From Eledone cirrhosa (taxonomy: Eukaryota): a stretch of 64,000 nucleotides of DNA. Shown here piece after piece: positions 1-63,088 of this stretch (its first letter is position 1; each line of letters begins with the position of its first letter). The notes under the pieces are model-generated. The model did not search any database, was not told where the DNA came from, and worked only from the letters and a program-made list of their open reading frames with translations. The translations under genes and the position numbers were made by a program. The stretch is taken from contig OZ024745.1 of NCBI GenBank assembly GCA_964016885.1, positions 5,084,001 through 5,148,000 of the forward strand, read 5' to 3'.

Positions 1-3000
1 CTTATCAAATTAGAACAAGTGGGGTGGAACTTATCAAATTAGACCAAGTGGGGTGGAACTTATCAAATTAGGCCAAGTGGGTGGAGCTTTTCAAATTAGA
101 CCAAGTGTGGTGGATCTTATCAAATTAGACCAAGTGGGGTGGAACTTATCAAATTAGACCGAGTGGGGTGGAACTTATCAAATTAGACCAAGTGGGGTGG
201 AACTTATCAAATTAGACCGAGTGGGTTGGAACTTATCAAATTAGACCGAGTGGGGTGGAACTTATCAAATTAGACCAAGTGGGGTGGAACTTATCAAATT
301 AGAGTGAGTGGGTTGGAACTTATCAAATTAGACCAAGTGGGGTGGAACTTATCTAATTAGACCAAGTGGGGTCGAACTTATCAAATTAGACCTAGTGGGG
401 TGGAACTTATCAAATTAGACCAAGTGGGGTGCAACTTATCAAATTAGACCAAGTGGGGTGGAACTTATGAAATTAGACCAAGTGGGGTGGAACTTATCAA
501 ATTAGTCTGAGTGGGGTGGAACTTATCAAATTAGACTAAGTGGGGTGGAAATTATCAAATTAGACCAAGTGAGGTGGAACTTATCAAATTAGACCTAGTG
601 GGGTAGAACTTATCAAATTAGACCGAGTGGGGTGGAACTTATCAAATTAGACCGAGTGGGGTGGAACTTATCAAATTAGCCCTAGTGTGGTGGAATTTAT
701 CAAATTAGACCAAGTAGGGTGGAATTTATTAATTTTAGGCCGAGTGGGGTGGAACTTATCAAATTAGACCTAGTGGGGTGGATCTTATCAAATTAGACTT
801 AGTGGGGTGGAACTTATCAAATTAGACCAAGTGGGGTGGAAATTATCAAATTAGACCGAGTCGGGTGCAACTTATCAAATTAGACCTAGTGGGGTGGAAC
901 TTATCAAATTAGACCGAGTGGGGTGCAACTTATCAAATTAGACCGAGTGGGGTGCAACTTATCAAATTAGACCGAGTGGTGTGGAACTTATCAAATTAGA
1001 CCAAGTGGGGTGGAACTTATCAAATTAGACCGAGTGGGGTGGAACTTATCAAATTAGACCGAGTGGGGTGGAACTTATCAAATTAGACCGAGTGGGGTGG
1101 AACTTATCAAATTAGACCGAGTGGGGTGGAACTTATCAACTTAGACCAAGTGGGGTGGAACTTATCAAATTAGAGTGAGTGGGTTGGAACTTATCAAATT
1201 AGACCAAGTGGGGTGGAACTTATCAAATTAGAACAAGTGGGGTGGAACTTATCAAATTAGACCAAGTGGGGTGGAACTTATCAAATTAGGCCAAGTGGGT
1301 GGAGCTTTTCAAATTAGACCAAGTGTGGTGGATCTTATCAAATTAGACCAAGTGGGGTGGAACTTATCAAATTAGACCGAGTGGGGTGGAACTTATCAAA
1401 TTAGACCAAGTGGGGTGGAACTTATCAAATTAGACCGAGTGGGGTGGAACTTATCAAATTAGACCGAGTGGGGTGGAACTTATCAAATTAGACCAAGTGG
1501 GGTGGAACTTATCAAATTAGAGTGAGTGGGTTGGAACTTATCAAATTAGACCAAGTGGGGTGGAACTTATCTAATTAGACCAAGTGGGGTCGAACTTATC
1601 AAATTAGACCTTGTGGGGTGGAACTTATCAAATTAGACCAAGTGGGGTGGAACTTATCAAATTAGACCAAGTGGGGTGGAACTTATCAAATTAAACCAAG
1701 TGGGGTGGAACTTATCAAATTAGACCAAGTGGGGTGGAACTTATCAAGTTAGACCTAGTGGGGTGGAACTTATCAAATTAGACCAAGTGGGGTGGAACTT
1801 ATCAAATTAGACCAAGTGGGGTGGAACTTATGAAATTAGACCAAGTGGGGTGGAACTTATCAAATTAGACTGAGTGGGGTGGAACTTATCAAATTAGACT
1901 AAGTGGGGTGGAAATTATCAAATTAGACCAAGTGGGGTGGAACTTATCAAATTAGACCTAGTGGGGTAGAACTTATCAAATTAGACCGAGTGGGGTGGAA
2001 CTTATCAAATTAGCCCTAGTGTGGTGGAATTTATCAAATTAGACCAAGTAGGGTGGAATTTATTAATTTTAGGCCGAGTGGGGTGGAACTTATCAAATTA
2101 GACCTAGTGGGGTGGATCTTATCAAATTAGACTTAGTGGGGTGAAACTTATCAAATTAGACCGAGTGGGGTGGAACTTATCAAATTAGACCAAGTTGGGT
2201 GGAACTTATTACATTAGACCGAGTGGGGTGGAACTTATCAAATTAGACCAAGTGGGGTGGAACTTATCAAATTAGACCGAGTGGGGTGGAACTTATCAAA
2301 TTAGACCGAGTGGGGTGGAACTTATCAAATTAGACCAAGTGGGGTGGAACTTATCAAATTAGAGTGAGTGGGTTGGAACTTATCAAATTAGACCAAGTGG
2401 GGTGGAACTTATCTAATTAGACCAAGTGGGGTCGAACTTATCAAATTAGACCTTGTGGGGTGGAACTTATCAAATTAGACCAAGTGGGGTGGAACTTATC
2501 AAATTAAACCAAGTGGGGTGGAACTTATCAAATTAGACCGAGTCGGGTGCAACTTATCAAATTAGACCTAGTGGGGTGGAACTTATCAAATTAGACCTAG
2601 TGGGGTGGAACTTATCAAATTAGACCAAGTTGGGTGGAACTTATCAAATTAGACCGAGTGGGGTGCAACTTATCAAATTAGACCGAGTGGGGTGCAACTT
2701 ATCAAATTAGACCGAGTGGTGTGGAACTTATCAAATTAGACCGAGTGGAGTGGAACTTATCAAATTAGACCAAGTGGGGTGGAACTTATCAAATTAGACC
2801 AAGTGGGGTGGAACTTATCAAATTAGACCGAGTGTGGTGGAACTTATCAAATTAGAACAAGTGGGGTGGAACTTATCAAATTAGACCAAGTGGGGTGGAA
2901 CTTATCAAATTAGAGTGAGTGGGTTGGAACTTATCAAATTAGACCAAGTGGGGTGGAACTTATCAAATTAGAACAAGTGGGGTGGAACTTATCAAATTAG

Positions 3001-6000
3001 ACCAAGTGGGGTGGAACTTATCAAATTAGGCCAAGTGGGGTGGAACTTTTCAAATTAGACCAAGTGTGGTGGATCTTATCAAATTAGACCAAGTGGGGTG
3101 GAACTTATCAAATTAGACCGAGTGGGGTGGAACTTATCAAATTGGACCAAGTGGGGTGGAACTTATCAAATTAGACCGAGTGGGGTGGAACTTATCAAAT
3201 TAGACCGAGTGGGGTGGAACTTATCAAATTAGACCAAGTGGGGTGGAACTTATCAAATTAGAGTGAGTGGGTTGGAACTTATCAAATTAGACCAAGTGGG
3301 GTGGAACTTATCTAATTAGACCAAGTGGGGTCGAACTTATCAAATTAGACCTTGTGGGGTGGAACTTATCAAATTAGACCAAGTGGGGTGGAACTTATCA
3401 AATTAGACCAAGTGGGGTGGAACTTATCAAATTAAACCAAGTGGGGTGGAACTTATCAAATTAGTCCAAGTTGGGTGGAACTTATGAAATTAGGCCAAGT
3501 TGGGTAGAACTTATCAAATTAGACCGAGTGGTGTGGAACTTATCAAATTAGACCAAGTGGGGTGGAACTTATCAAATTAGACCGAGTGGGGTGGAACTTA
3601 TCAAATTAGACCGAGTGAGGTGGAACTTATCAAATTAGTCCAAGTGGGGTGGAACTTATCAAATTAGAGTGAGTGGGTTGGAACTTAGCAAATTAGACCA
3701 AGTGGGGTGGAACTTATCAAATTAGAACAAGTGGGGTGGAACTTATCAAATTAGACCAAGTGGGGTGGAACTTATCAAATTAGGCCAAGTGGGGTGGAGC
3801 TTTTCAAATTAGACCAAGTGTGGTGGATCTTATCAAATTAGACCAAGTGGGGTGGAACTTATTACATTAGACCGAGTGGGGTGGAACTTATCAAATTAGA
3901 CCAAGTGGGGTGGAACTTATCAAATTAGACCGAGTGGGGTGGAACTTATCAAATTAGACCGAGTGGGGTGGAACTTATCAAATTAGACCAAGTGGGGTGG
4001 AACTTATCAAATTAGAGTGAGTGGGTTGGAACTTATCAAATTAGACCAAGTGGGGTGGAACTTATCTAATTAGACCAAGTGGGGTCGAACTTATCAAATT
4101 AGACCTTGTGGGGTGGAACTTATCAAATTAGACCAAGTGGGGTGGAACTTATCAAATTAAACCAAGTGGGGTGGAACTTATCAAATTAGACCAAGTGGGG
4201 TGGAACTTATCAAATTAGACCTAGTGGGGTGGAACTTATCAAATTAGACCAAGTGGGGTGGAACTTATCAAATTAGACCTTGTGAGGTGGAACTTATGAA
4301 ATTAGACCAAGTGGGGTGGAACTTATCAAATTAGACCAAGTGGGGTGGAACTTATCAAATTAGACCAAGTGGGGTGGAACTTATCAAATTAGACTGAGTG
4401 GGGTGGAACTTATCAAATTAGACTAAGTGGGGTGGAAATTATCAAATTAGACCAAGTGGGGTGGAAATTATCAAATTAGACCAAGTGTGGTGGATCTTAT
4501 CAAATTAGACCGACTGGGGTGGAACTTATCAATTTAGACCAAGTGGGGTGGAACTTATCAAATTAGACCAAGTGGGGTGGAGCTTATCAAATTAGACCAA
4601 GTGTGGTGGATCTTATCAAATTAGACCAAGTGTGGTTGAACTTATCAAATTAGACCAAGTTGGGTGGAACTTATCAAATTAGACCTAGTGAGGTGGAACT
4701 TATCAAATTAGACCAAATGGGGTGGAACTTATCAAATTAGACTGAGTGTGGTGGAACTTATTAAATTAGACCAAGTGGGGTGGAACTTATCAAATTAGAC
4801 CGAGTGGTGTGGAACTTATCAAATTAGACCAAGTGGGGTGGAACTTATCAAATTAGACCTAGTGGGGTGGAACTTATCAAATTAGACCAAGTGGGGTGGA
4901 ACTTATCAAATTAGACTGAGTGGGGTGGAACTTATCAAATTAGACCAAGTGGGGTGGAAATTATCAAATTAGACCAAGTGGGGTGGAACTTATTAAATTA
5001 GACCAAGTATGGTCGAACTTATCAAATTAGAGTATCTGTGGTGGAACTTATCAAATTAGACCAAGTGGGGTGGAACTTATCAAATTAGAACAAGTGGGGT
5101 GGAACTTATCAAATTAGACCAAGTGGGGTGGAACTTATCAAATTAGGCCAAGTGGGTGGAGCTTTTCAAATTAGACCAAGTGTGGTGGATCTTATCAAAT
5201 TAGACCAAGTGGGGTGGAACTTATCAAATTAGACCGAGTGGGGTGGAACTTATCAAATTAGACCAAGTGGGGTGGAACTTATCAAATTAGACCGAGTGGG
5301 TTGGAACTTATCAAATTAGACCGAGTGGGGTGGAACTTATCAAATTAGACCAAGTGGGGTGGAACTTATCAAATTAGAGTGAGTGGGTTGGAACTTATCA
5401 AATTAGACCAAGTGGGGTGGAACTTATCTAATTAGACCAAGTGGGGTCGAACTTATCAAATTAGACCTAGTGGGGTGGAACTTATCAAATTAGACCAAGT
5501 GGGGTGCAACTTATCAAATTAGACCAAGTGGGGTGGAACTTATGAAATTAGACCAAGTGGGGTGGAACTTATCAAATTAGTCTGAGTGGGGTGGAACTTA
5601 TCAAATTAGACTAAGTGGGGTGGAAATTATCAAATTAGACCAAGTGAGGTGGAACTTATCAAATTAGACCTAGTGGGGTAGAACTTATCAAATTAGACCG
5701 AGTGGGGTGGAACTTATCAAATTAGACCGAGTGGGGTGGAACTTATCAAATTAGCCCTAGTGTGGTGGAATTTATCAAATTAGACCAAGTAGGGTGGAAT
5801 TTATTAATTTTAGGCCGAGTGGGGTGGAACTTATCAAATTAGACCTAGTGGGGTGGATCTTATCAAATTAGACTTAGTGGGGTGGAACTTATCAAATTAG
5901 ACCAAGTGGGGTGGAAATTATCAAATTAGACCGAGTCGGGTGCAACTTATCAAATTAGACCTAGTGGGGTGGATCTTATCAAATTAGACCGAGTGGGGTG

Positions 6001-9000
6001 CAACTTATCAAATTAGACCGAGTGGGGTGCAACTTATCAAATTAGACCGAGTGGTGTGGAACTTATCAAATTAGACCAAGTGGGGTGGAACTTATCAAAT
6101 TAGACCGAGTGGGGTGGAACTTATCAAATTAGACCGAGTGGGGTGGAACTTATCAAATTAGACCGAGTGGGGTGGAACTTATCAAATTAGACCGAGTGGG
6201 GTGGAACTTATCAACTTAGACCAAGTGGGGTGGAACTTATCAAATTAGAGTGAGTGGGTTGGAACTTATCAAATTAGACCAAGTGGGGTGGAACTTATCA
6301 AATTAGAACAAGTGGGGTGGAACTTATCAAATTAGACCAAGTGGGGTGGAACTTATCAAATTAGGCCAAGTGGGTGGAGCTTTTCAAATTAGACCAAGTG
6401 TGGTGGATCTTATCAAATTAGACCAAGTGGGGTGGAACTTATCAAATTAGACCGAGTGGGGTGGAACTTATCAAATTAGACCAAGTGGGGTGGAACTTAT
6501 CAAATTAGACCGAGTGGGGTGGAACTTATCAAATTAGACCGAGTGGGGTGGAACTTATCAAATTAGACCAAGTGGGGTGGAACTTATCAAATTAGAGTGA
6601 GTGGGTTGGAACTTATCAAATTAGACCAAGTGGGGTGGAACTTATCTAATTAGACCAAGTGGGGTCGAACTTATCAAATTAGACCTTGTGGGGTGGAACT
6701 TATCAAATTAGACCAAGTGGGGTGGAACTTATCAAATTAGACCAAGTGGGGTGGAACTTATCAAATTAAACCAAGTGGGGTGGAACTTATCAAATTAGAC
6801 CAAGTGGGGTGGAACTTATCAAGTTAGACCTAGTGGGGTGGAACTTATCAAATTAGACCAAGTGGGGTGGAACTTATCAAATTAGACCAAGTGGGGTGGA
6901 ACTTATGAAATTAGACCAAGTGGGGTGGAACTTATCAAATTAGACTGAGTGGGGTGGAACTTATCAAATTAGACTAAGTGGGGTGGAAATTATCAAATTA
7001 GACCAAGTGGGGTGGAACTTATCAAATTAGACCTAGTGGGGTAGAACTTATCAAATTAGACCGAGTGGGGTGGAACTTATCAAATTAGCCCTAGTGTGGT
7101 GGAATTTATCAAATTAGACCAAGTAGGGTGGAATTTATTAATTTTAGGCCGAGTGGGGTGGAACTTATCAAATTAGACCTAGTGGGGTGGATCTTATCAA
7201 ATTAGACTTAGTGGGGTGAAACTTATCAAATTAGACCGAGTGGGGTGGAACTTATCAAATTAGACCAAGTTGGGTGGAACTTATCAAATTAGACCGAGTC
7301 GGGTGCAACTTATCAAATTAGACCTAGTGGGGTGGAACTTATCAAATTAGACCTAGTGGGGTGGAACTTATCAAATTAGACCAAGTTGGGTGGAACTTAT
7401 CAAATTAGACCGAGTGGGGTGCAACTTATCAAATTAGACCGAGTGGGGTGCAACTTATCAAATTAGACCGAGTGGTGTGGAACTTATCAAATTAGACCGA
7501 GTGGAGTGGAACTTATCAAATTAGACCAAGTGGGGTGGAACTTATCAAATTAGACCAAGTGGGGTGGAACTTATCAAATTAGACCGAGTGTGGTGGAACT
7601 TATCAAATTAGAACAAGTGGGGTGGAACTTATCAAATTAGACCAAGTGGGGTGGAACTTATCAAATTAGAGTGAGTGGGTTGGAACTTATCAAATTAGAC
7701 CAAGTGGGGTGGAACTTATCAAATTAGAACAAGTGGGGTGCAACTTATCAAATTAGACCAAGTGGGGTGGAACTTATCAAATTAGGCCAAGTGGGGTGGA
7801 ACTTTTCAAATTAGACCAAGTGTGGTGGATCTTATCAAATTAGACCAAGTGGGGTGGAACTTATCAAATTAGACCGAGTGGGGTGGAACTTATCAAATTG
7901 GACCAAGTGGGGTGGAACTTATCAAATTAGACCGAGTGGGGTGGAACTTATCAAATTAGACCGAGTGGGGTGGAACTTATCAAATTAGACCAAGTGGGGT
8001 GGAACTTATCAAATTAGAGTGAGTGGGTTGGAACTTATCAAATTAGACCAAGTGGGGTGGAACTTATCTAATTAGACCAAGTGGGGTCGAACTTATCAAA
8101 TTAGACCTTGTGGGGTGGAACTTATCAAATTAGACCAAGTGGGGTGGAACTTATCAAATTAGACCAAGTGGGGTGGAACTTATCAAATTAAACCAAGTGG
8201 GGTGGAACTTATCAAATTAGTCCAAGTTGGGTGGAACTTATGAAATTAGGCCAAGTTGGGTAGAACTTATCAAATTAGACCGAGTGGTGTGGAACTTATC
8301 AAATTAGACCAAGTGGGGTGGAACTTATCAAATTAGACCGAGTGGGGTGGAACTTATCAAATTAGACCGAGTGAGGTGGAACTTATCAAATTAGTCCAAG
8401 TGGGGTGGAACTTATCAAATTAGAGTGAGTGGGTTGGAACTTAGCAAATTAGACCAAGTGGGGTGGAACTTATCAAATTAGAACAAGTGGGGTGGAACTT
8501 ATCAAATTAGACCAAGTGGGGTGGAACTTATCAAATTAGGCCAAGTGGGGTGGAGCTTTTCAAATTAGACCAAGTGTGGTGGATCTTATCAAATTAGACC
8601 AAGTGGGGTGGAACTTATTACATTAGACCGAGTGGGGTGGAACTTATCAAATTAGACCAAGTGGGGTGGAACTTATCAAATTAGACCGAGTGGGGTGGAA
8701 CTTATCAAATTAGACCGAGTGGGGTGGAACTTATCAAATTAGACCAAGTGGGGTGGAACTTATCAAATTAGAGTGAGTGGGTTGGAACTTATCAAATTAG
8801 ACCAAGTGGGGTGGAACTTATCTAATTAGACCAAGTGGGGTCGAACTTATCAAATTAGACCTTGTGGGGTGGAACTTATCAAATTAGACCAAGTGGGGTG
8901 GAACTTATCAAATTAAACCAAGTGGGGTGGAACTTATCAAATTAGACCAAGTGGGGTGGAACTTATCAAATTAGACCTAGTGGGGTGGAACTTATCAAAT

Positions 9001-12000
9001 TAGACCAAGTGGGGTGGAACTTATCAAATTAGACCTTGTGAGGTGGAACTTATGAAATTAGACCAAGTGGGGTGGAACTTATCAAATTAGACCAAGTGGG
9101 GTGGAACTTATCAAATTAGACCAAGTGGGGTGGAACTTATCAAATTAGACTGAGTGGGGTGGAACTTATCAAATTAGACTAAGTGGGGTGGAAATTATCA
9201 AATTAGACCAAGTGGGGTGGAAATTATCAAATTAGACCAAGTGTGGTGGATCTTATCAAATTAGACCGACTGGGGTGGAACTTATCAATTTAGACCAAGT
9301 GGGGTGGAACTTATCAAATTAGACCAAGTGGGGTGGAGCTTATCAAATTAGACCAAGTGTGGTGGATCTTATCAAATTAGACCAAGTGTGGTTGAACTTA
9401 TCAAATTAGACCAAGTTGGGTGGAACTTATCAAATTAGACCAAATGGGGTGGAACTTATCAAATTAGACTGAGTGTGGTGGAACTTATTAAATTAGACCA
9501 AGTGGGGTGGAACTTATCAAATTAGACCGAGTGGTGTGGAACTTATCAAATTAGACCAAGTGGGGTGGAACTTATCAAATTAGACCTAGTGGGGTGGAAC
9601 TTATCAAATTAGACCAAGTGGGGTGGAACTTATCAAATTAGACTGAGTGGGGTGGAACTTATCAAATTAGACCAAGTGGGGTGGAAATTATCAAATTAGA
9701 CCAAGTGGGGTGGAACTTATTAAATTAGACCAAGTATGGTCGAACTTATCAAATTAGAGTATCTGTGGTGGAACTTATCAAATTAGACCAAGTGGGGTGG
9801 AACTTATCAAATTAGAACAAGTGGGGTGGAACTTATCAAATTAGACCAAGTGGGGTGGAACTTATCAAATTAGGCCAAGTGGGTGGAGCTTTTCAAATTA
9901 GACCAAGTGTGGTGGATCTTATCAAATTAGACCAAGTGGGGTGGAACTTATCAAATTAGACCGAGTGGGGTGGAACTTATCAAATTAGACCAAGTGGGGT
10001 GGAACTTATCAAATTAGACCGAGTGGGTTGGAACTTATCAAATTAGACCGAGTGGGGTGGAACTTATCAAATTAGACCAAGTGGGGTGGAACTTATCAAA
10101 TTAGAGTGAGTGGGTTGGAACTTATCAAATTAGACCAAGTGGGGTGGAACTTATCTAATTAGACCAAGTGGGGTCGAACTTATCAAATTAGACCTAGTGG
10201 GGTGGAACTTATCAAATTAGACCAAGTGGGGTGCAACTTATCAAATTAGACCAAGTGGGGTGGAACTTATGAAATTAGACCAAGTGGGGTGGAACTTATC
10301 AAATTAGTCTGAGTGGGGTGGAACTTATCAAATTAGACTAAGTGGGGTGGAAATTATCAAATTAGACCAAGTGAGGTGGAACTTATCAAATTAGACCTAG
10401 TGGGGTAGAACTTATCAAATTAGACCGAGTGGGGTGGAACTTATCAAATTAGACCGAGTGGGGTGGAACTTATCAAATTAGCCCTAGTGTGGTGGAATTT
10501 ATCAAATTAGACCAAGTAGGGTGGAATTTATTAATTTTAGGCCGAGTGGGGTGGAACTTATCAAATTAGACCTAGTGGGGTGGATCTTATCAAATTAGAC
10601 TTAGTGGGGTGGAACTTATCAAATTAGACCAAGTGGGGTGGAAATTATCAAATTAGACCGAGTCGGGTGCAACTTATCAAATTAGACCTAGTGGGGTGGA
10701 ACTTATCAAATTAGACCGAGTGGGGTGCAACTTATCAAATTAGACCGAGTGGGGTGCAACTTATCAAATTAGACCGAGTGGTGTGGAACTTATCAAATTA
10801 GACCAAGTGGGGTGGAACTTATCAAATTAGACCGAGTGGGGTGGAACTTATCAAATTAGACCGAGTGGGGTGGAACTTATCAAATTAGACCGAGTGGGGT
10901 GGAACTTATCAAATTAGACCGAGTGGGGTGGAACTTATCAACTTAGACCAAGTGGGGTGGAACTTATCAAATTAGAGTGAGTGGGTTGGAACTTATCAAA
11001 TTAGACCAAGTGGGGTGGAACTTATCAAATTAGAACAAGTGGGGTGGAACTTATCAAATTAGACCAAGTGGGGTGGAACTTATCAAATTAGGCCAAGTGG
11101 GTGGAGCTTTTCAAATTAGACCAAGTGTGGTGGATCTTATCAAATTAGACCAAGTGGGGTGGAACTTATCAAATTAGACCGAGTGGGGTGGAACTTATCA
11201 AATTAGACCAAGTGGGGTGGAACTTATCAAATTAGACCGAGTGGGGTGGAACTTATCAAATTAGACCGAGTGGGGTGGAACTTATCAAATTAGACCAAGT
11301 GGGGTGGAACTTATCAAATTAGAGTGAGTGGGTTGGAACTTATCAAATTAGACCAAGTGGGGTGGAACTTATCTAATTAGACCAAGTGGGGTCGAACTTA
11401 TCAAATTAGACCTTGTGGGGTGGAACTTATCAAATTAGACCAAGTGGGGTGGAACTTATCAAATTAGACCAAGTGGGGTGGAACTTATCAAATTAAACCA
11501 AGTGGGGTGGAACTTATCAAATTAGACCAAGTGGGGTGGAACTTATCAAGTTAGACCTAGTGGGGTGGAACTTATCAAATTAGACCAAGTGGGGTGGAAC
11601 TTATCAAATTAGACCAAGTGGGGTGGAACTTATGAAATTAGACCAAGTGGGGTGGAACTTATCAAATTAGACTGAGTGGGGTGGAACTTATCAAATTAGA
11701 CTAAGTGGGGTGGAAATTATCAAATTAGACCAAGTGGGGTGGAACTTATCAAATTAGACCTAGTGGGGTAGAACTTATCAAATTAGACCGAGTGGGGTGG
11801 AACTTATCAAATTAGACCTAGTGGGGTAGAACTTATCAAATTAGACTGAGTGGGGTGGAACTTATCAAATTAGACCAAGTGGGGTGGAAATTATCAAATT
11901 AGACCAAGTGGGGTGGAACTTATTAAATTAGACCAAGTATGGTCGAACTTATCAAATTAGAGTATCTGTGGTGGAACTTATCAAATTAGACCAAGTGGGG

Positions 12001-39000: not shown

Positions 39001-42000
39001 GTGGAACTTATCAAATTAGACCAAGTGGGGTGGAAATTATCAAATTAGACCAAGTGGGGTGGAAATTATCAAATTAGACCAAGTGTGGTGGATCTTATCA
39101 AATTAGACCAAGTGGGGTGGAACTTATCAAATTAGACCAAGTGGGGTGGAACTTATGAAATTAGGCCAAGTTGGGAAGAATTTAGCAAATTAGACCGAGT
39201 GGTGTGGAACTTATCAAATTAGACCAAGTGGGGTGGAACATATCAAATTAGACCGAGTGGGGTGGAACTTATTAAATTAGACCAAGTATGGTCGAACTTA
39301 TCAAATTAGAGTATCTGTGGTGGAACTTATCAAATTAGAACAAGTGGGGTGGAACTTATCAAATTAAACCAAGTGGGGTGGCACTTATCAAATTAGTCCA
39401 AGTTGGGTGGAACTTATGAAATTAGGCCAAGTTGGGTAGAACTTATCAAATTAGACCGAGTGGTGTGGAACTTATCAAATTAGACCAAGTGGCGTGGAAC
39501 TTATCAAATTAGACCGAGTGGGGTGGAACTTATCAAATTAGACCGAGTGGGGTGGAACTTATCAAATTAGACCAAGTGGGGTGGAACTTATCAAATTAGA
39601 GTGAGTGGGTTGGAACTTATCAAATTAGACCAAGTGGGGTGGAACTTATCAAATTAGACCAAGTGGGGTGGAACATATCAAATTAGACCGAGTGGGGTGG
39701 AACTTATTAAATTAGACCAAGTATGGTCGAACTTATCAAATTAGAGTATCTGTGGTGGAACTTATCAAATTAGAACAAGTGGGGTGGAACTTATCAAATT
39801 AAACCAAGTGGGGTGGCACTTATCAAATTAGTCCAAGTTGGGTGGAACTTATGAAATTAGGCCAAGTTGGGTAGAACTTATCAAATTAGACCGAGTGGTG
39901 TGGAACTTATCAAATTAGACCAAGTGGCGTGGAACTTATCAAATTAGACCGAGTGGGGTCGAACTTATCAAATTAGACCTTGTGGGGTGGAACTTATCAA
40001 ATTAGACCAAGTGGGGTGGAACTTATCAAATTAGACCAAGTGGGGTGGAACTTATCAAATTAAACCAAGTGGGGTGGAACTTATCAAATTAGACCAAGTG
40101 GGGTGGAACTTATCAAATTAGACCTAGTGGGGTGGAACTTATCAAATTAGACCAAGTGGGGTGGAACTTATCAAATTAGACCAAGTGGGGTGGAACTTAT
40201 GAAATTAGGCCAAGTTGGGTAGAACTTATCAAATTAGACCGAGTGGTGTGGAACTTATCAAATTAGACCAAGTGGGGTGGAACATATCAAATTAGACCGA
40301 GTGGGGTGGAACTTATTAAATTAGACCAAGTATGGTCGAACTTATCAAATTAGAGTATCTGTGGTGGAAATTATCAAATTAGACCAAGTGGGGTGGAACT
40401 TATCAAATTAAACCAAGTGGGGTGGCACTTATCAAATTAGTCCAAGTTGGGTGGAACTTATGAAATTAGGCCAAGTTGGGTAGAACTTATCAAATTAGAC
40501 CGAGTGGTGTGGAACTTATCAAATTAGACCAAGTGGGGTGGAACTTATCAAATTAGACCGAGTGGGGTGGAACTTATCAAATTAGACCGAGTGAGGTGGA
40601 ACTTATCAAATTAGTCCAAGTGGGGTGGAACTTATCAAATTAGAGTGAGTGGGTTGGAACTTAGCAAATTAGACCAAGTGGGGTGGAACTTATCAAATTA
40701 GAACAAGTGGGGTGGAACTTATTAAATTAGACCAAGTGGGGTGGAACTTATCAAATTAGGCCAAGTGGGGTGGAGCTTTTCAAATTAGACCAAGTGTGGT
40801 GGATCTTATCAAATTAGACCAAGTGGGGTGGAACTTATTAAATTAGACCGAGTGGGGTGGAACTTATCAAATTAGACCAAGTGGGGTGGAACTTATCAAA
40901 TTAGACCGAGTGGGGTGGAACTTATCAAATTAGACCGAGTGGGGTGGAACTTATCAAATTAGACCAAGTGGGGTGGAACTTATCAAATTAGAGTGAGTGG
41001 GTTGGAACTTATCAAATTAGACCAAGTGGGGTGGAACTTATCTAATTAGACCAAGTGGGGTCGAACTTATCAAATTAGACCTTGTGGGGTGGAACTTATC
41101 AAATTAGACCAAGTGGGGTGGAACTTATCAAATTAAACCAAGTGGGGTGGAACTTATCAAATTAGACCAAGTGGGGTGGAACTTATCAAATTAGACCTAG
41201 TGGGGTGGAACTTATCAAATTAGACCAAGTGGGGTGGAACTTATCAAATTAGACCTTGTGAGGTGGAACTTATGAAATTAGACCAAGTGGGGTGGAACTT
41301 ATCAAATTAGACCAAGTGGGGTGGAACTTATCAAATTAGACTGAGTGGGGTGGAACTTATCAAATTAGACTAAGTGGGGTGGAAATTATCAAATTAGACC
41401 AAGTGGGGTGGAAATTATCAAATTAGACCAAGTGTGGTGGATCTTATCAAATTAGACCGACTGGGGTGGAACTTATCAATTTAGACCAAGTGGGGTGGAA
41501 CTTATCAAATTAGACCAAGTGGGGTGGAGCTTATCAAATTAGACCAAGTGTGGTGGATCTTATCAAATTAGACCAAGTGTGGTTGAACTTATCAAATTAG
41601 ACCAAGTTGGGTGGAACTTATCAAATTAGACCTAGTGAGGTGGAACTTATCAAATTAGACCAAATGGGGTGGAACTTATCAAATTAGACTGAGTGTGGTG
41701 GACCTTATTAAATTAGACCAAGTGGGGTGGAACTTATCAAATTAGACCATCTGTGGTGGAACTTATCAAATTAGACCTAGTGGGGTGGAACTTATCAAAT
41801 TAGACCAAGTGGGATGGAACTTATCAATTTAGACCAAGTGGGGTGGAACTTATCAAATTAAACCTAGTGGGGTGGAACTTATCAAATTAGATCGAGTGGG
41901 GTGGAACATATCAAATTAGACCAAGTTGGGTGGAACTTATGAAATTAGACCAAGTGGGGTGGAACTTATCAAATTAAACCTAGTGCGGTGGAACTTATCA

Positions 42001-44904
42001 AATTAGTCCAAGTTGGGTGGAACTTATGAAATTAGGCCAAGTTGGGTAGATCTTATCAAATTAGACCTAGTGTGGTGGAACTTATCAAATTAGACCGAGT
42101 GGCGTGGAACTTATCAAATTAGACCTAGTGGGGTGGAACTTATCAATTTAGACCAAGTGGGGTGGAAATTATCAAATTAGACCTTGTGGGGTTGAACTTA
42201 TCAAATTAGACCAAGTGGGTCGAACTTATCAAATTAGACCAAGTGGTGTGGAACTTATCAAAGTCGAGTGAGTGGGTTGGAACTTATGAAATTAGGCCAA
42301 GTGGTGTGGAACTTATCAAATTAGACCTAGTGGGGTGGACCTTATCAAATTAGACCAAGTGGGGAGGATCTTATCAAATTAGACCTAGTGGGGTGGAACT
42401 TATCAAATTAGACCACGTGTGGTGGAACTTATCAAATTAGACCAAGTGTGGTGGAACTTATCAAATTAGACCAAGTGGGGTGGAACTTATCAAATTAGAC
42501 TGAGTGGGGTGGAACTTATCAAATTAGACCAAGTGGGGTGGAACTTATCAAATTAGACCAAGTGGGGTGGAGTTTATCAAATTAGACCAAGTGTGGTGGA
42601 TCTTATCAAATTAGACCAAGTGTGGTGGAACTTATCAAATTAGACCAAGTGGGGTGGAACTTATCAAATTAGACCTAGTCAGGTGGAACTTATCAAATTA
42701 GACCAAATGGGGTGGAACTTATCAAATTAGACCTAGTGGGGTGGACCTTATCAAATTAGAGCAAGTGGGGTGCAATTTATCAAATTAGGCCAAGTGGGGT
42801 GGAACTTATCAAATTAGACCAAGTGGGGTGGAAGTTATCAAATTAGACCAAGTGGGGTGGAACTTATGAAATTAGACCAAGTGGGGTCGAACTTATCAAA
42901 TTAGACCAAGTGGGGTGGAACTTATCAAATTAGACTGAGTGGGGTGGAACTTATCAAATTAGACCAAGTGGGGTGGAAATTATCAAATTAGACCAAGTGG
43001 GGTGGAAATTATCAAATTAGACCAAGTGTGGTGGATCTTATCAAATTAGACCGACTGGGGTGGAACTTACCAAATTAGACCTAGTGGGGTAGAACCTATC
43101 AAATTAGACCGAGTGGGGTGGAACTTATCAAATTAGACCGAGTGGGGTGGAACTTATCAAATTAGACCTAGTGGGGTGGAGCTTATCAAATTAGACTGAG
43201 TGGGGTGGAACTTATCAAATTAGACCAAGTGGGGTGGAACTTATCAAATTAGACCACGTGGGGTGGAACTTATGAAATTAGGCCAAGTTGGGTAGAACTT
43301 ATCAAATTAGACCGAGTGGTGTGGAACTTATCAAATTAGACCAAGTGGGGTGGAACTTATCAAATTAGACCGAGTGGGGTGGAACTTATCAAATTAGACC
43401 AAGTGGGGTGGAACTTATCAAATTAGACCAAGTGGGGTGGAACTTATCAAATTAGAGTGAGTGGGTTGGAACTTATCAAATTAAACCAAGTGGGGTGGAA
43501 CTTATCAAATTAGAACAAGTGGGGTGGAACTTATCAAATTAGACCAAGTGGGGTGGAACTTATGAAATTAGGCCAAGTGGGGTGGAGCTTTTCAAATTAG
43601 ACCAAGTGTGGTGGATCTTATCAAATTAGACCAAGTGGGGTGGAACTTATCAAATTAGAACAAGTGGGGTGGAACTTATCAAATTAAACCAAGTGGGGTG
43701 GCACTTATCAAATTAGTCCAAGTTGGGTGGAACTTAAGAAATTAGGCCAAGTTGGGTAGAACTTATCAAATTAGACCGAGTGGTGTGGAACTTATCAAAT
43801 TAGACCAAGTGGGGTGGAACTTATCAAATTAGACCGAGTTGGGTGGAACTTATCAAATTAGACCGAGTGGGGTGGAACTTATCAAATTAGACCAAGTGGG
43901 GTGGAACTTATCAAATTAGAGTGAGTGGGTTGGAACTTATCAAATTAGACCAAGTGGGGTGGAACTTATCTAATTAGACCAAGTGGGGTCGAACTTATCA
44001 AATTAGACCTTGTGGGGTGGAACTTATCAAATTAGACCAAGTGGGGTGGAACTTATCAAATTAGACCAAGTGGGGTGGAACTTATCAAATTAGACCATCT
44101 TTGGTGGAACTTATCAAATTAGACCTAGTGGGGTGGAATTTATCAAATTAGACCAAGTGGGGTGGAACTTATCAAATTAGACCAAGTGGGGTGGAACTTA
44201 TCAAATTAGACCAAGTGTGGTGGAACTTATCAAATTAAACCTAGTGGGGTGGCACTTATCAAATTAGTCCAAGTTGGGTGGAACTTATGAAATTAGGCCA
44301 AGTTGGGTAGAACTTATCAAATTAGACCTAGTGTGGTGGAACTTATCAAATTAGACCGAGTGGGGTGGAACTTATCAAATTAGACCAAGTGGGGTGGAAC
44401 TTATCAAATTAGAGTGAGTGGGTTGGAATTTATCAAATTAGACCAAGTGGGGTGGAACTTATCAAATTAGACCAAGTGGGGTGGAACTTATCAAATTAGA
44501 CCAAGTGGGGTCGAACTTATCAAATTAGACCAAGTGGGGTGGAACTTATCAAATTAGACCAAGTGGGGTCGAACTTATCAAATTAGACCTTGTGGGGTGG
44601 AACTTATCAAATTAGACCAAGTGGGGTGGAACTTATCAAATTAGACCAAGTGGTGTGGAACTTATGAAATTAGACTGAGTGGGGTGGAACTTATCAAATT
44701 AGACCAAGTAGGGTGGAACTTATCAAATTAGACCAAGTGGGGTGGAACTTATCAAATTAGACCAAGTGGGGTCGAACTTATCAAATTAGTCCAAGTGGGG
44801 TGGAACTTATCAAATTAGACCAAGTGGGGTCGAACTTATCAAATTAGACCTTGTGGGGTGGAACTTATCAAATTAGACCAAGTGGGGTGGAACTTATCAA
44901 ATTA
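1..44904 (+). repeat. 29-bp tandem satellite array, about 1,550 monomers, continuing beyond the left edge
   Basis: Consensus CTTATCAAATTAGACCAAGTGGGGTGGAA repeats head-to-tail in one orientation with no insertions seen. It carries recurrent variant monomers, including 28-bp and 30-bp ones, and ends abruptly at ...CAAATTA|CTGTTT. The ORF track shows no ORF here. Confidence 0.99.
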
Positions 44905-44941
44905 CTGTTTCGTAATATTCTAGTTATACCAAATATCTTCT
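44903..44941 (+). repeat. 39-bp direct repeat, left copy, at the junction between the two satellites
   Basis: TACTGTTTCGTAATATTCTAGTTATACCAAATATCTTCT is 36/39 identical to 48016-48054. Confidence 0.9.
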
Positions 44942-47900
44942 CCTGACTGTCAAGTAATAATGGGGTATGATCTAACATGTAGAATTTAATTTGTACTCCT
45001 GACTATCTAACATGTAGTGTTTAGTTAGTACTCCTGACTATCTAATATGTAGAGTGTAGTTAGTATTCCTGACTATCAAGTAATAGTGGGGTATGATCTA
45101 ATATGGAGAGTTCAATTAGTACCACTGACTATCAAGTAATATTGGGGTATGATCTAATATGGAGAGTTCAGTTAGTACGACTGACTATCATGTAATAGTG
45201 GGGTATGATCTAATATGGAGAGTTCAGTTAGTACCACGGACTATCAAGTAATATTGGGGTATGATCTAATATGTAGAGTTTAGTTAGTACTCCTGACTAT
45301 CAAGTAATAGTGGGGTATGATCTAACATGTAGAGTTTAGTTAGTACTCCTGACTATCAAGTAATAGTGGGGTATGATCTAATATGGAGAGTTCAGTTCGT
45401 ACAACTGAGTATCAAGTAATATTGGGGTATGATCTAATATGGAGAGTTCAGTTAGTACGACTGACTATCATGTAATAGTGGGGTATGATCTAATATGGAG
45501 AGTTCAGTTAGTACCACGGACTATCAAGTAATATTGGGGTATGATCTAATATGGAGAGTTCAGTTAGTACGACTGACTATCATGTAATAGTGGGGTATGA
45601 TCTAATATGGAGAGTTCAGTTAGTACGACTGACTATCAAGTAATATTGGGGTATGATCTAATATGGAGAGTTCAGTTAGTACCACGGACTATCAAGTAAT
45701 ATGGGGTATGATCTAATATGTAGAGTTTAGTTAGTACTCCTGACTATCAAGTAATAGTGGGGTATGATCTAATATGTAGAGTTTAGTTAGTACTCCTGAC
45801 TATCAAGTAATAGTGGGGTATGATCTAATATGGAGAGTTCAGTTCGTACCACTGACTATCAAGTAATATTGGGGTATGATCTAATATGGAGAGTTCAGTT
45901 AGTACGACTGACTATCATGTAATAGTGGGGTATGATCTAATATGGAGAGTTCAGTTAGTACCACGGACTATCAAGTAATATTGGGGTATGATCTAATATG
46001 GAGAGTTCAGTTAGTACGACTGACTATCATGTAATAGTGGGGTATGATCTAATATGGAGAGTTCAGTTAGTACGACTGACTATCAAGTAATATTGGGGTA
46101 TGATCTAATATGGAGAGTTCAGTTAGTACCACGGACTATCAAGTAATATTGGGGTATGATCTAATATGGAGAGTTCAGTTAGTACCACTGACTATCAAGT
46201 AATATTGGGGTATGATCTAATATGGAGAGTTCAGTTAGTACCACTGACTATCAAGTAATATTGGGGTATGATCTAATATGGAGAGTTCAGTTAGTACGAC
46301 TGACTATCATGTAATAGTGGTGTATGATCTAATATGGAGAGTTCAGTTAGTACCACTGACTATCAAGTAATATTGGGGTATGATCTAATATGGAGAGTTC
46401 AGTTAGTATGACTGACTATCTAATATGGAGAGTTCAGTTATTACGACTGACTATCAAGTAATAGTGGGGTATGATCTAATATGGAGAGTTCAGTTAGTAC
46501 CACTGACTATCAAGTAATAGTGGGGTATGATCTAATATGGAGAGTTCAGTTAGTACAACTGACTATCAAGTAATAGGGGGGTATGATCTAATATGGAGAG
46601 TTCAGTTAGTACTCCTGACTATCTAATATGGAGAGTTCAGTTAGTACGACTGACTATCAAGTAATAGTGGGGTATGATCTAATATGGAGAGTTCAGTTAG
46701 TACCACTGACTATCAAGTAATAGTGGGGTATGATCTAATATGGAGAGTTCAGTTAGTACGACTGACTATCAAGTAATAGTGGGGTATGATCTAATATGGA
46801 GAGTTCAGTTAGTACGACTGACTATCAAGTAATAGTGGGGTATGATCTAATATGGAGAGTTCAGTTAGTACCACTGACTATCAAGTAATATTGGGGTATG
46901 ATCTAATATGGAGAGTTCAGTTAGTACCACTGACTATCAAGTAATAGTGGAGTATGATCTAATATGATCTAATATGGAGAGTTCAGTTAGTACCACTGAC
47001 TATCAAGTAATAGTGGGGTATGATCTAATATGGAGAGTTCAGTTAGTACGACTGACTATCAAGTAATAGTGGGGTATGATCTAATATGGAGAGTTCAGTT
47101 AGTACAACTGACTATCAAGTAATAGTGGGGTATGATCTAATATGGAGAGTTCAGTTAGTGTCACTGACTATCATGTAATAGTGGGGTATGATCTAATATG
47201 GAGAGTTCAGTTAGTACCACTGACTATCAAGTAATAGTGAGGTATGATCTAATATGGAGAGTTCAGTTAGTACGACTGACTATCAAGTAATAGTGGGGTA
47301 TGATCTAATAGGGAGAGTTCAGTTAGTGTCACTGACTATCAAGTAATAGTGGGTATGATCTAATATGGAGAGTTGAGTTAGTACGACTGACTATCAAGTA
47401 ATAGTGGGGTATGATCTAATATGGAGAGTTCAGTTAGTACGACTGACTATCAAGTAATAGTGGGGTATGATCTAATATGAAGAGTTCAGTTAGTACCACT
47501 GACTATCAAGTAATATTGGGGTATGATCTAATATGGAGAGTTCAGTTAGTACCACTGACTATCAAGTAATAGTGGGGTATGATCTAATATGGAGAGTTCA
47601 GTTAGTACGACTGACTATCAAGTAACAGTGGGGTATGATCTAATAAGGAGAGTTCAGTTAGTACGACTGACTATCAAGTAATAGTGCTGTATGATCTAAT
47701 ATGGAGAGTTCAGTTAGTACGACTGACTATCAAGTAATAGTGGGGTATGATCTAATATGGAGAGTTCAGTTAGTACGACTGACTATCAAGTAATAGTGGG
47801 GTATGATCTAATATGGAGAGTTCAGTTAGTGTCACTGACTATCAAGTAATTGTGTGGTATGATCTAATATGGAGAGTTTAGTTAGTACCACTGACTATCA

Positions 47901-48011
47901 AGTAATAGTGGGGTATGATCTAATATGGAGAGTTCCGTTAGTACGACTGACTATCAAGTAATAGTGGGGTATGATCTAATATGGAGAGTTCAGTTAGTAC
48001 CACTGACTATC
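44942..48011 (+). repeat. 56-bp tandem satellite, about 55 units
   Basis: Consensus CTGACTATCAAGTAATAGTGGGGTATGATCTAATATGGAGAGTTCAGTTAGTAC(G/C)A, period 56 (e.g. 45181 to 45237). It includes 35-bp deletion units. Confidence 0.98.
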
Positions 48012-48015
48012 TTAC

Positions 48016-48054
48016 TACTGTTTGGTAATATTCCAGTTTTACCAAATATCTTCT
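48016..48054 (+). repeat. 39-bp direct repeat, right copy
   Basis: TACTGTTTGGTAATATTCCAGTTTTACCAAATATCTTCT, containing the 8-bp inverted repeat TTTGGTAA/TTACCAAA. Confidence 0.9.
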
Positions 48055-48237
48055 ACCAACCTATCTTACTAACTCTACTATTTATTCAGACAGAATCAAA
48101 TTATTAGAGTCTAGTTTACTGTTCTTGTTGATGTTGTTGTGACTTTTGTTGTTGATGTTATGGTAGTTTTTGTTCATTTATTTAAAAATAATACCATGTA
48201 TCTTATTTCCATTTTCTTTTCTTGCCTTGGAATTGTG

Positions 48238-48690
48238 TCTCCCACCATCTCCCACCACCTCCCACCACCATCTCCCACCACCTCCCACTGCCATCTCCCA
48301 CTCCCTCCCACAATCTCCCACTGTCTTCCACCATCTCCCACCATTTCCCACTGTCTCCCACCATCTTCCACCATCTTCCACCATCTCCCACCATCACCCC
48401 CTCTCCCATCACCTCCCACCACCTCCCACCATCTCCCCCATCTCCCACCTCACCATCATCTCCCACCATCTCCCATCATCTCCCACCATTTCCCACCATT
48501 TCTCACCCCACCCTATCTCCCACCATCTCCCACCACCACCACCTTCTACCACCATCTCCCACCACCATCGCCATCTCCCACCATTTTTCACCAGTTCCCA
48601 CCCACCCCCATCTCACACCACCACTGCCATCTCCCATCATCTCCCACCACCACCACCACCACCACCACCGCCATCTCCCACCATCTCCCA
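48238..48690 (+). repeat. Degenerate C-rich (CCACCATCTC)n-type low-complexity tract
   Basis: Read directly. It produces spurious Pro/His- and Gly/Trp-rich ORFs in all six frames. Confidence 0.95.
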
Positions 48691-48740
48691 CAGTGGTGTA
48701 TGATGATGTGGCTAACATGCCTCTATGTCTTTGTTTCTAG

Positions 48741-48884
48741 TTACAAACACTTGTAGTTGATCTGCAACAAGAGAAGCTGGAACTCCGTCGCCAACACTCC
48801 CATAACATAAAGAACATGTTAGATGAGACCAACACTAGATTGGAGAAAATGGAGGAAGCTTATCAAAAACAAAATGATGAAAAT
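48741..48884 (+). CDS. CEP112: CEP112-like internal exon A (144 nt, phase 0/0): LQTLVVDLQQEKLELRRQHSHNIKNMLDETNTRLEKMEEAYQKQNDEN
   Basis: Acceptor tctttgtttctAG and donor GTAAGT flank an open frame. The peptide matches the recalled vertebrate CEP112 segment QEKFDLQKQHTENIQELLEDTNVRLNKMESEY (recalled, not searched). Confidence 0.88.
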
Positions 48885-54093: not shown

Positions 54094-54248
54094 ATAAATA
54101 TGATCAAAGATCTGGAGGGAAGAGTTCAAGAGCTTCTTCTTGAAGCAGATTCAGTTTCTAAGAATCGGAATATTTTGGAAAGTGAAAACAAAGAACTTCA
54201 AATAACTCTTGCAAACCAAAATGAAGAAATTCAATCTTTAAAACAAAG
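54094..54248 (+). CDS. CEP112: CEP112-like internal exon B (155 nt, phase 0/2): INMIKDLEGRVQELLLEADSVSKNRNILESENKELQITLANQNEEIQSLKQ
   Basis: Acceptor ttttatttaacAG, donor AG|GTAATT, in frame with exon A. MIKDLEGRVQEL matches recalled CEP112 MIKELEARVQQL. Confidence 0.88.
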
Positions 54249-57149: not shown

Positions 57150-57166
57150 TAGAACTTTCCGCTTGC

Positions 57167-57263
57167 AGAAAATAAGCGGCACCTAGAAAATAAGCGGCAC
57201 CTAGAAAATAAGCGGCACCTAGAAAATAAGCGGCACCTAGAAAATAAGCGGCACCTAGAAAAT
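57167..57263 (+). repeat. 18-bp perfect tandem repeat, 5.4 copies
   Basis: (AGAAAATAAGCGGCACCT)5 followed by AGAAAAT. Confidence 0.97.
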
Positions 57264-58472: not shown

Positions 58473-58585
58473 AAGGTGTGTGGCTGAAGGATTAGAGAAT
58501 TGGATTCGCAATTATGAGGTTACGAGTTCCCAGACTGGATGATGCATTATGTCCTTGAACAGGACACCTTATTTCATGTTGCTCT
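58473..58585 (+). mobile_element. 5' part of a second tRNA-derived SINE family
   Basis: A-box-like TGGCTGAAGGATTAGA and B-box-like GAGTTC, followed by TGTCCTTGAACAGGACACCTTATTTCA. Degenerate. Confidence 0.5.
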
Positions 58586-58725
58586 TTCTGTCAGGAGTTG
58601 TGACTAGTAGATAGTATCAGCAATGGAAACATTGTTTCCTTGGTCCAATTTAACAAGTTCCACTCCAATCTGTAAGCAAATGAGGTCCGGGATCTTGTCG
58701 ATCGATTTCTACTAATATATTTATC

Positions 58726-58893: not shown

Positions 58894-59023
58894 TGAATCA
58901 AGCCTCTCAGAAAAACTCCAGACTTTGCAACAGCAACACGGTAAAAATATTTCAGAAATGGATGAACAGTTCAGAGCAAGTTATTTAAGCATGGAACAAA
59001 AACACGAACAACTTACCAACAAG
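58894..59023 (+). CDS. CEP112: CEP112-like internal exon C (130 nt, phase 2/0): (S)ESSLSEKLQTLQQQHGKNISEMDEQFRASYLSMEQKHEQLTNK
   Basis: Acceptor tttcAG, donor AAG|GTAAAA. Its phase completes the split codon of exon B. Coiled-coil composition, and the length fits the recalled vertebrate segment. Confidence 0.82.
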
Positions 59024-59795: not shown

Positions 59796-59888
59796 CTAAC
59801 AGAATCAAATATTGAACAAGAAAAATGTATCCTACAACTAAAAGAGAAACTTCAAGATGAAGAGAGTGAACGGCACAGACAAATTAAG
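59796..59888 (+). CDS. CEP112: CEP112-like internal exon D (93 nt, phase 0/0): LTESNIEQEKCILQLKEKLQDEESERHRQIK
   Basis: Acceptor ttcctctttgtAG, donor AAG|GTTATC. QLKEKLQDEESERHRQIK resembles recalled QLKQQLQESELQRKQQLR. Confidence 0.85.
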
Positions 59889-63028: not shown

Positions 63029-63088
63029 GAATTAGAACAGTCCTACAAAACTGACAAGGTTCATCTTGAACAGCTCCATGATAAACAG
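63029..63088 (+). CDS. CEP112: CEP112-like internal exon E (60 nt, phase 0/0): ELEQSYKTDKVHLEQLHDKQ; the gene continues beyond the window
   Basis: Acceptor ttttccAG, donor CAG|GTAAAC. The 20 aa parallel recalled DQENKFQMEKSHLKHIYEKK. Confidence 0.83.

What the first reader, a model, noticed from the sequence alone, without database searches (positions are those of the whole stretch)
1..48884. A centromere-style satellite block of at least 48 kb appears to lie inside a CEP112 intron
Seen in the sequence: exon A (48741) starts at a splice acceptor in mid-protein, exons A-E splice into an intact 194-codon frame, and no exon-like sequence lies between position 1 and 48740. Established: vertebrate CEP112 has several hundred residues N-terminal to this segment, is a centrosomal protein and is linked to sperm formation. 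Drosophila Y-linked axonemal dynein genes (kl-3, kl-5) carry giant satellite-filled introns that need dedicated RNA-binding factors. Inference: Pol II must read through about 1,550 29-mers and about 55 56-mers in an intron roughly ten times longer than its neighbours (0.8-5.2 kb). This could be an independent case of satellite intron gigantism in a centrosome/sperm gene, acting as a transcription delay or an RNP scaffold. It is the strongest candidate for a novel system in this window.
Basis: partly seen in the sequence, partly recalled or inferred. Interest (0 to 1): 0.78.

Follow-up and report, generated by a model that had tools for sequence, protein, structure and literature searches.

The report
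Private giant minisatellites inflate octopus introns
An 83-kb repeat array sits inside an intron of the octopus CEP112 gene, but it is one of many such arrays, each with its own unrelated repeat unit, crowding this chromosome end and other genes, so it likely reflects runaway local repeat growth rather than a sperm-gene timing device.

Summary
The array is real and intronic. The upstream CEP112 exon lies 89,252 bp before exon A on the same strand, in phase, with no gap. The intron holds an 83.1-kb 29-mer array (2,866 copies) and a 3-kb 56-mer array.

It is not centromere-style: 1,358 of 1,359 genome-wide hits of its core lie in this one array, and it has no fixed higher-order period. It grew in place from the tail of a tRNA-type SINE, whose unamplified flank still borders it.

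It is not special to this intron or gene. CEP112 spans 755 kb, and 7 of its 27 introns exceed 60 kb; this one is third largest. Their large arrays have different, unrelated units. A G-beta-5 gene 4.6 Mb away has a 28-kb intronic array. Across the first 10 Mb of this chromosome, 12 of 20 ten-kb samples are wholly array, against 5 of 66 elsewhere.

The Drosophila Y-loop reading is not supported. What remains unusual is the scale: a domain of giant, single-locus minisatellites through which genes apparently still work. My paper searches found no description of this in cephalopods, and the scan had not noted it before. Splicing across this intron was not observed directly.

The parts
1..44904 (+). 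3' half of an 83,115-bp single-locus 29-mer minisatellite array (whole array G000:C5:5045790-5128904, 2866 copies; begins about 38.2 kb left of the window); unit homologous to the tail of a tRNA-type SINE
44902..44940 (+). left copy of a 39-bp direct repeat (36 of 39 identical) that brackets the 56-mer block
   Evidence: coordinates read from the alignment
44970..48011 (+). second array: 56-mer with 35-bp truncated units, about 3 kb; its likeness to the 29-mer is not above chance
   Evidence: (427 of 2000 shuffles score as high)
48015..48053 (+). right copy of the 39-bp direct repeat
   Evidence: coordinates read from the alignment
48238..48691 (+). degenerate CCA-rich simple repeat in the 3' end of the intron
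48741..48884 (+). CEP112 exon A (13th of 28 mapped coding-exon hits); phase-0 acceptor closing the 89,252-bp intron; upstream exon ends at G000:C5:5043488
   Evidence: spliced to exon B in a contig of run X5
54094..54248 (+). CEP112 exon B
58476..58698 (+). unamplified copy of the SINE-like dispersed repeat whose tail gave the 29-mer; the seed reads on the minus strand at about 58639-58698 (51 of 60 identical to the array's left junction)
58894..59023 (+). CEP112 exon C
59796..59888 (+). CEP112 exon D
63029..63088 (+). CEP112 exon E

Best explanation
The block is an 83-kb single-locus minisatellite inside an 89-kb CEP112 intron; it likely grew in place from a 29-bp piece of a SINE by repeated unequal exchange, as a tolerated passenger of a chromosome-end domain where many unrelated intronic repeats have expanded.

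Step 1 (shown): a tRNA-type SINE tail lies antisense in the intron; its last ~25 bp remain unamplified and run straight into the first unit.
Step 2 (inferred): 29 bp of it were duplicated in tandem, and the rest of the element was lost at the right end.
Step 3 (pattern shown, mechanism inferred): the array grew by block duplications of irregular size, 1-4 kb, as unequal crossover or gene conversion would give.
Step 4 (shown): the same inflation affects other introns of CEP112, its flanks and a G-beta-5 gene, each time with a different unit.
Step 5 (inferred): the intron is spliced out by its ordinary GT/AG sites, the protein is unchanged, and the cost is a longer transcription time that selection has not removed.
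For: Intronic position: the upstream exon ends ...ECDKK, exon A begins LQTLV, phase 0-0, colinear with P0002 and P0003. There is no N in 864 kb and 28 exon hits lie in order on +.

Single locus: 1358 of 1359 exact 20-mer hits are in this array. The same holds for two other CEP112 arrays: 1009 of 1009 and 1894 of 1894.

SINE seed: left flank plus first unit match dispersed single copies at 92% (61 bp, L120), 85% (window 58.6 kb; L064) and 78% (L098). The element's other end carries Pol III A- and B-box matches (consensus motifs recalled). Part of it hits 45 of 193 stretches held.

Growth pattern: 163 distinct monomers, 5.2% mean divergence, no lag above 0.18 identity (baseline 0.087), and 29 identical runs of 40 or more units, longest 3741 bp.

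Domain effect: 7 of 27 introns exceed 60 kb; 70% of intron DNA is in arrays of 1.5 kb or more; this intron would be 3.2 kb without them. The G-beta-5 intron of about 40.5 kb holds a 28.3-kb 47-mer array. Samples at least 90% array: 12 of 20 at C5 0.25-10.25 Mb versus 5 of 66 elsewhere, p=3e-6. Thirty large-array units have no BLAST hit to each other.
Against: A dispersed-repeat seed crossing an array junction was found for only 2 of 13 arrays (this one clearly, a 30-mer weakly), so SINE seeding is not the general rule.

Chromosome-end enrichment is uneven: 0 of 18 samples at 5 Mb on other chromosomes, and 2 of 19 near far ends; 3 fully array samples lie in chromosome interiors. 'Chromosome end' alone therefore does not explain the domain.

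Three of CEP112's long introns (160, 84 and 60 kb) keep 32-52 kb that is not array, and one 43-kb G-beta-5 intron is only 7% array, so arrays are not the only cause of long introns.

Neutrality is not shown, and large-array units have a biased composition, which may mean a filter acts. The domain holds an 18.5-kb duplicate at 98.9%, so assembly faults exist nearby.
Confidence: 0.78

Rival explanations
1. Y-loop-type programme: the satellite-filled introns are kept by selection to delay CEP112 transcription or to scaffold RNA-binding proteins in spermatocytes.
For: The gene is 755 kb and 70% of its intron DNA is array. Mammalian CEP112 acts in spermiogenesis (PMC11443074, abstract). Drosophila kl-3 and kl-5 provide the precedent (PMC6508621, abstract).
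Against: Array density equals the regional background (p=0.61). G-beta-5 and the flanks are affected alike. The units share no sequence that one protein could read. Introns are at most 160 kb of complex 15-60-bp units, not megabases of simple satellite. The sperm role is not shown in octopus.
Confidence: 0.07
2. A dedicated amplifying process (for example a recombination or repair pathway active in this domain) selects short repeats of a certain composition and expands them, so the domain is built by a sequence-biased mechanism rather than by drift alone.
For: Units of 30 large arrays are richer in ACT/CTA/GTA trinucleotides than 74 small arrays (0.206 vs 0.126, p=8e-4). They almost never hold A4/T4 runs (1 of 30 vs 20 of 74, p=0.006). 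The domain is sharply enriched.
Against: The trinucleotides were chosen after seeing the data, and many arrays come from one locus. A3/T3 runs do not differ (p=0.14). The 29-mer itself holds an A3 run. Long-term mutation and homogenisation, or sequencing and assembly bias against homopolymers, could give the same skew.
Confidence: 0.2
3. Assembly artefact: the array is misjoined into the gene or inflated in length.
For: Repeat-rich region. A near-identical duplicate of half a gene lies on the same chromosome end. No read spanning the array could be examined.
Against: No N in 864 kb; exons complete and in order across seven large introns. The left junction is continuous with its SINE flank. The longest perfect internal repeat is only 3.7 kb. 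The units occur nowhere else in the assembly to be misjoined from.
Confidence: 0.06
4. Centromeric or pericentromeric satellite with the gene embedded in it.
For: Long homogeneous tandem DNA; a repeat-dense domain near one chromosome end could be the pericentromere of an acrocentric chromosome.
Against: Single locus, 83 kb, no shared family among 30 large arrays, no regular higher-order period.
Confidence: 0.04

Closest known systems
Transposon-derived minisatellites (human Alu-derived minisatellites; mouse SINE B1-derived VNTR family), review PMC9659126 (passages read)
   Same: A short tandem unit copied from part of a SINE, with the unamplified flank still attached.
   Different: 83 kb and 2866 copies at one locus, far beyond the usual 0.1-20 kb of minisatellites (range recalled); inside a coding gene.
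Subtelomeric VNTR enrichment in human genes such as PTPRN2 and DLGAP2, PMC7608644 (abstract read)
   Same: Many unrelated, locus-specific repeats with units over 15 bp, concentrated within megabases of a chromosome end and filling introns.
   Different: Here units are about 39% GC (human enrichment is for over 60% GC), arrays reach 50-116 kb and make up about 70% of the domain, and most other chromosome ends sampled are not enriched.
Drosophila Y-linked gigantic genes kl-3 and kl-5, PMC6508621 (abstract) and PMC11207136 (passages)
   Same: Tandem DNA fills introns of a gene whose mammalian ortholog acts in sperm formation; Pol II would have to cross it.
   Different: There: megabase introns, simple satellites over 99% of the locus, Y-linked, with tested RNA-binding factors. 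Here: introns up to 160 kb, private complex units, neighbouring non-sperm genes alike, no evidence of a dedicated programme.
Enlarged introns in Octopus minor, PMC6279123 (passages read)
   Same: Intron enlargement contributes to octopus genome size.
   Different: That paper gives a mean intron of 5.4 kb and points to transposons; the passages seen do not describe giant intronic tandem arrays. Its supplements were not read.

Membership tests
CEP112 orthologs | N-terminal DUF4485 (PF14846) followed by long coiled coil; full colinear exon set | tested here: met
   PF14846 in P0002 residues 11-91; P0002 maps from residue 1 to 991 in order on C5 +; name from O. sinensis record
Centromeric satellite | Family shared across chromosomes or forming very long arrays | tested here: not met
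   1358 of 1359 exact hits in one 83-kb array
Centromeric satellite | Regular higher-order repeat (typical, not universal; recalled) | tested here: not met
   best global lag only 0.18 identity; local periods change from 76 to over 600 units
Centromeric satellite | CENP-A chromatin | not testable with these tools
   needs ChIP or cytology
Y-loop-type intron gigantism | Megabase introns of simple satellite, over 99% of the locus | tested here: not met
   largest intron 160 kb; arrays are 70% of intron DNA; units 15-60 bp
Y-loop-type intron gigantism | Confined to a few germline genes | tested here: not met
   G-beta-5 intron with 28.3-kb array; regional density equal to CEP112's; only one other gene was examined
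Y-loop-type intron gigantism | Satellite transcribed in spermatocytes and bound by dedicated RNA-binding proteins | not testable with these tools
   no run on record as RNA was listed
SINE-derived minisatellite | Unit of 10-100 bp homologous to part of a dispersed repeat, with flank continuity | tested here: met
   flank plus unit match four dispersed single copies at 78-92%; element has A/B-box matches
SINE-derived minisatellite | Locus-specific array | tested here: met
SINE-derived minisatellite | Copy number varies between alleles (VNTR) | not testable with these tools
   no second haplotype held; indirect only: a 48-mer array has 67.7 and 45.7 copies in two copies of a duplicated block
Subtelomeric VNTR domain | Enrichment in the terminal megabases of chromosomes | tested here: inconclusive
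   strong at the start of C5 (12 of 20), weak elsewhere (0 of 18 at 5 Mb, 2 of 19 near far ends); the true telomere position was not checked
Subtelomeric VNTR domain | GC-rich units (over 60%) | tested here: not met
   mean 39% GC in 30 large units

The most novel reading that the evidence does not exclude
This octopus has a roughly 10-Mb gene-bearing chromosomal domain in which a sequence-biased amplification process has blown up ordinary intronic minisatellites into private satellites of 20-116 kb, one unit per array, producing wholesale intron gigantism in normal genes: a natural factory for the birth of satellite DNA.
Probability: 0.25. Interest if true: 0.7.

Novelty: new variant of a known kind. 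Interest (0 to 1): 0.42.

Why it matters
The origin of this satellite can be read directly: seed element, unamplified flank and irregular block duplications are all visible. Many independent arrays in one domain give a replicated test of which short repeats become satellites and what drives it. The gene also shows that several 60-160-kb tandem-repeat introns are apparently tolerated without any sign of special machinery, which is a useful control for claims that such introns are functional. It also warns that short-read cephalopod assemblies may have collapsed these arrays and understated gene sizes (inference). As a CEP112- or sperm-specific system it matters little.

Tried and rejected
1. 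RNA test of the junction across the array. No RNA holder was listed. Run X5 gave a contig joining exon A to exon B, but it starts 27 bases inside exon A, and X5 had no contig on the upstream exon. No verdict.
2. Relatives' DNA. X4 covered part of the upstream exon only; X6 gave short low-identity pieces. The array could not be dated.
3. The 56-mer as a derivative of the 29-mer: rejected, 427 of 2000 shuffles score as high.
4. Avoidance of sense-strand poly(A) signals as a filter: 7 of 8 intronic arrays have no sense AATAAA, but the 43-mer array has 309 and the 29-mer has 126 ATTAAA. Not general.
5. G-quadruplex pattern in the window's 29-mer array: 0 canonical matches.
6. Coding potential of the unit: in the first six units five of six frames have stops, and the sixth is a plain repeat; no protein match in the intron.
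7. Rfam on the seed element: one chance-level hit, 19 bits against a 71-bit cut-off. The SINE call rests on motif matches and dispersal, not on a library name.
8. A second giant domain at C5 89-100 Mb: 0 of 6 follow-up samples fully array. Not supported.
9. Neighbouring genes: of 10 candidate exons scanned, 3 hit Pfam (2 G-beta, 1 kinase C-terminal). Only G-beta-5 was mapped.
10. Paper searches that found no description of giant intronic minisatellites in cephalopods: (listings only). The library lacks most subscription papers, so absence is weak.
11. Earlier scan notes: none on this genome or on look-alikes; word look-ups gave unrelated cases.
Full report
Observation. The window begins inside a 29-mer array (1-44904, 1548 copies) followed by a 56-mer array to 48011. 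Five exons from 48741 onward have canonical splice sites and join to 194 codons without a stop. Exon B is 80% identical to an Octopus sinensis CEP112-like protein (P0003) and to an unnamed 991-aa protein (P0002) with the DUF4485 domain. The organism is thus an octopod; I did not identify it further. The window is G000:C5:5084001-5148000, and exon A has one match in the genome.

The intron. In the fetched flanks the next exon upstream ends at C5:5043488 on the same strand. It ends ...ECDKK at a GT donor, and exon A begins LQTLV, phase 0 to phase 0, exactly as P0002 (ECDKK-LQTLL) and P0003 (ECDQK-LQTLL) read. The intron is 89,252 bp. The 29-mer array fills 83,115 bp of it (2866 copies), and 3.2 kb is not large array. 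There is no N in 864 kb. P0002 comes from a 3378-base contig, which fits a spliced transcript of a related animal, so the junction is probably used (inference). In this species a contig of run X5, not on record as RNA, joins exon A to exon B. The junction across the array itself was not covered.

The whole gene. Coding exons run from C5:4722020 to 5477308, 755 kb, as 28 hits in order (most boundaries are tblastn ends, so lengths are approximate). The median intron is 4.6 kb. Seven of 27 exceed 60 kb: 129, 61, 82, 89 (this one), 160, 84 and 60 kb. Their largest arrays have units of 28/32/60, 51, 44, 29, 21, 43 and 30 bp and lengths of 108, 55, 77, 83, 116, 27 and 7 kb. Arrays of 1.5 kb or more make up 527,912 of 752,279 intron bases. 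Arrays also lie outside the coding span: 40.7 kb and 12.4 kb upstream, and at least 7.7 kb downstream.

Not centromeric. An exact 20-mer from the unit has 1359 hits in the 3.0-Gb assembly, 1358 of them in this array. Two other CEP112 arrays behave the same: 1009 of 1009 and 1894 of 1894 hits are local. These are exact-match counts, so diverged relatives would be missed. The array has 163 distinct monomers, 5.2% mean divergence and no fixed higher-order period. It has 29 identical runs of 40 units or more, up to 3741 bp, at lags from 57 to 968 units. That pattern fits growth by block duplication of variable size (inference).

Origin of the unit. The one hit elsewhere is a single copy inside a dispersed repeat on C1. 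The 25 bases left of the array plus the first unit match it at 92% over 61 bp, and match three more single copies at 78-85%, one of them in this window near 58.6 kb. The full element is about 240 bp; part of it hits 45 of 193 stretches held; its far end has Pol III A- and B-box matches on the opposite strand (consensus motifs recalled). So the seed is the tail of a tRNA-type SINE lying antisense in the intron. The rest of the element does not follow the array on the right. The 56-mer is a separate array bracketed by a 39-bp direct repeat and is not detectably related to the 29-mer. Of 13 arrays tested against my samples, only this one and, weakly, a 30-mer showed a dispersed repeat crossing the junction.

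Gene or region? I sampled 10-kb stretches at fixed positions and counted those at least 90% covered by arrays of 1.5 kb or more. On C5 0.25-10.25 Mb the count is 12 of 20, with mean cover about 73%. Elsewhere it is 5 of 66: C5 14-128 Mb 2 of 20, other chromosomes at 5 Mb 0 of 18, far ends plus C21 2 of 20, C1-C4 interiors 1 of 8. Fisher p=3e-6. Left out because they were chosen after seeing results: L120, L161-L172, L173-L180 (1 of 8 full, one more at 0.89) and L181-L188 (0 of 8). CEP112's own tiles (34 of 66) match the regional rate (p=0.61). A G-beta-5 gene at C5 9.76-9.85 Mb has an intron of about 40.5 kb with a 28.3-kb 47-mer array, while its other long intron (43 kb) is only 7% array. Thirty large-array units share no BLAST hit. 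Giant private arrays are therefore a regional property and occur at lower density genome-wide.

Composition. Among 122 arrays that passed filters (period 15-100, complex unit; 18 of middle size left out), 30 large ones are richer in ACT/CTA/GTA than 74 small ones (0.206 vs 0.126, p=8e-4, chosen after the fact) and rarely contain A4/T4 runs (1 of 30 vs 20 of 74, p=0.006). This is a lead, not a result.

How it most likely works. A SINE fragment was duplicated in tandem, and unequal exchange or conversion then expanded it to 83 kb in a domain where such growth is frequent or weakly opposed. Normal splice sites would remove it. The arrays add about 528 kb to the transcription unit, a few hours at a recalled Pol II speed of 1-4 kb per minute. 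No function is shown. The Y-loop model predicts gene specificity and some shared RNA feature; neither was found.

Comparison. Transposon-derived minisatellites are known (PMC9659126, passages), as are VNTR-rich genes near human chromosome ends (PMC7608644, abstract) and human introns over 100 kb (PMC11207136, passages). Drosophila kl-3 and kl-5 have megabase simple-satellite introns with dedicated factors (PMC6508621, abstract). Mammalian CEP112 acts in spermiogenesis (PMC11443074, abstract). Enlarged introns were reported in Octopus minor (PMC6279123, passages; supplements not read). Seven searches (listings only) found no report of giant private intronic arrays in cephalopods, within a library that lacks most subscription papers.

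Verdict. Observation confirmed; interpretation partly supported. It works like a SINE-derived minisatellite in a VNTR-rich domain, at unusual scale. It fails the tests for centromeric satellite and for Y-loop-type gigantism that could be run. New variant of a known kind; interest 0.42. Open: read support for array length, splicing across the intron, age and polymorphism.

Noticed in passing
L171-L172 (G000:C5:1315003-1333515) versus L080/L161 (C5:9750566-9769076): The 3' half of the G-beta-5 gene is present twice on this chromosome, 98.9% identical over 18.5 kb; the shared 48-mer array has 67.7 and 45.7 copies. Retained haplotype or recent segmental duplication.
   Followed up: partly
G000 contig lengths: Four very large chromosomes (443, 416, 379, 379 Mb) beside much smaller ones (135 Mb and less), which suggests fusions; internal arrays might mark former ends.
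   Followed up: no
window 53186-53741, 57167-57263, 58726-58879: Small intronic minisatellites (43-mer x13, 18-mer x5, 48-mer x3): the unexpanded form of the same kind of repeat.
   Followed up: no
L005:90-950 and 1040-1700: Two further short arrays (units of roughly 40-50 bp) sit between the upstream exon and the 29-mer array; the first resembles a common dispersed repeat also seen near window 49200.
   Followed up: no
P0003: The O. sinensis model starts in the exon just after the 82-kb intron and lacks the N-terminal ~360 residues of P0002; a long or collapsed intron there might have split the annotation.
   Followed up: no
L081:1260-1541 and 4304-4477, minus strand (C5 10.25 Mb): Exons of an AGC-type kinase (Pkinase_C hit) with a probable coiled-coil exon, at the edge of the array-rich domain.
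   Followed up: no
L151:1-7913 and L152 (C5:4709546-4721913): A 12.4-kb 20-mer array ends about 100 bp before the ATG; an acceptor-like site before the ATG suggests it lies in a 5' UTR intron.
   Followed up: no
window 56290-57160 and 58170-58460: Apparent decayed retrotransposon-like fragment and an inverted pair of similar stretches inside the B-C intron, seen by eye only.
   Followed up: no
L103, L119; L100, L124: Some small tandem units recur on different chromosomes (72-73-mer on C2 and C20; 28-mer on C5 and C4), unlike the private units of the giant arrays.
   Followed up: no
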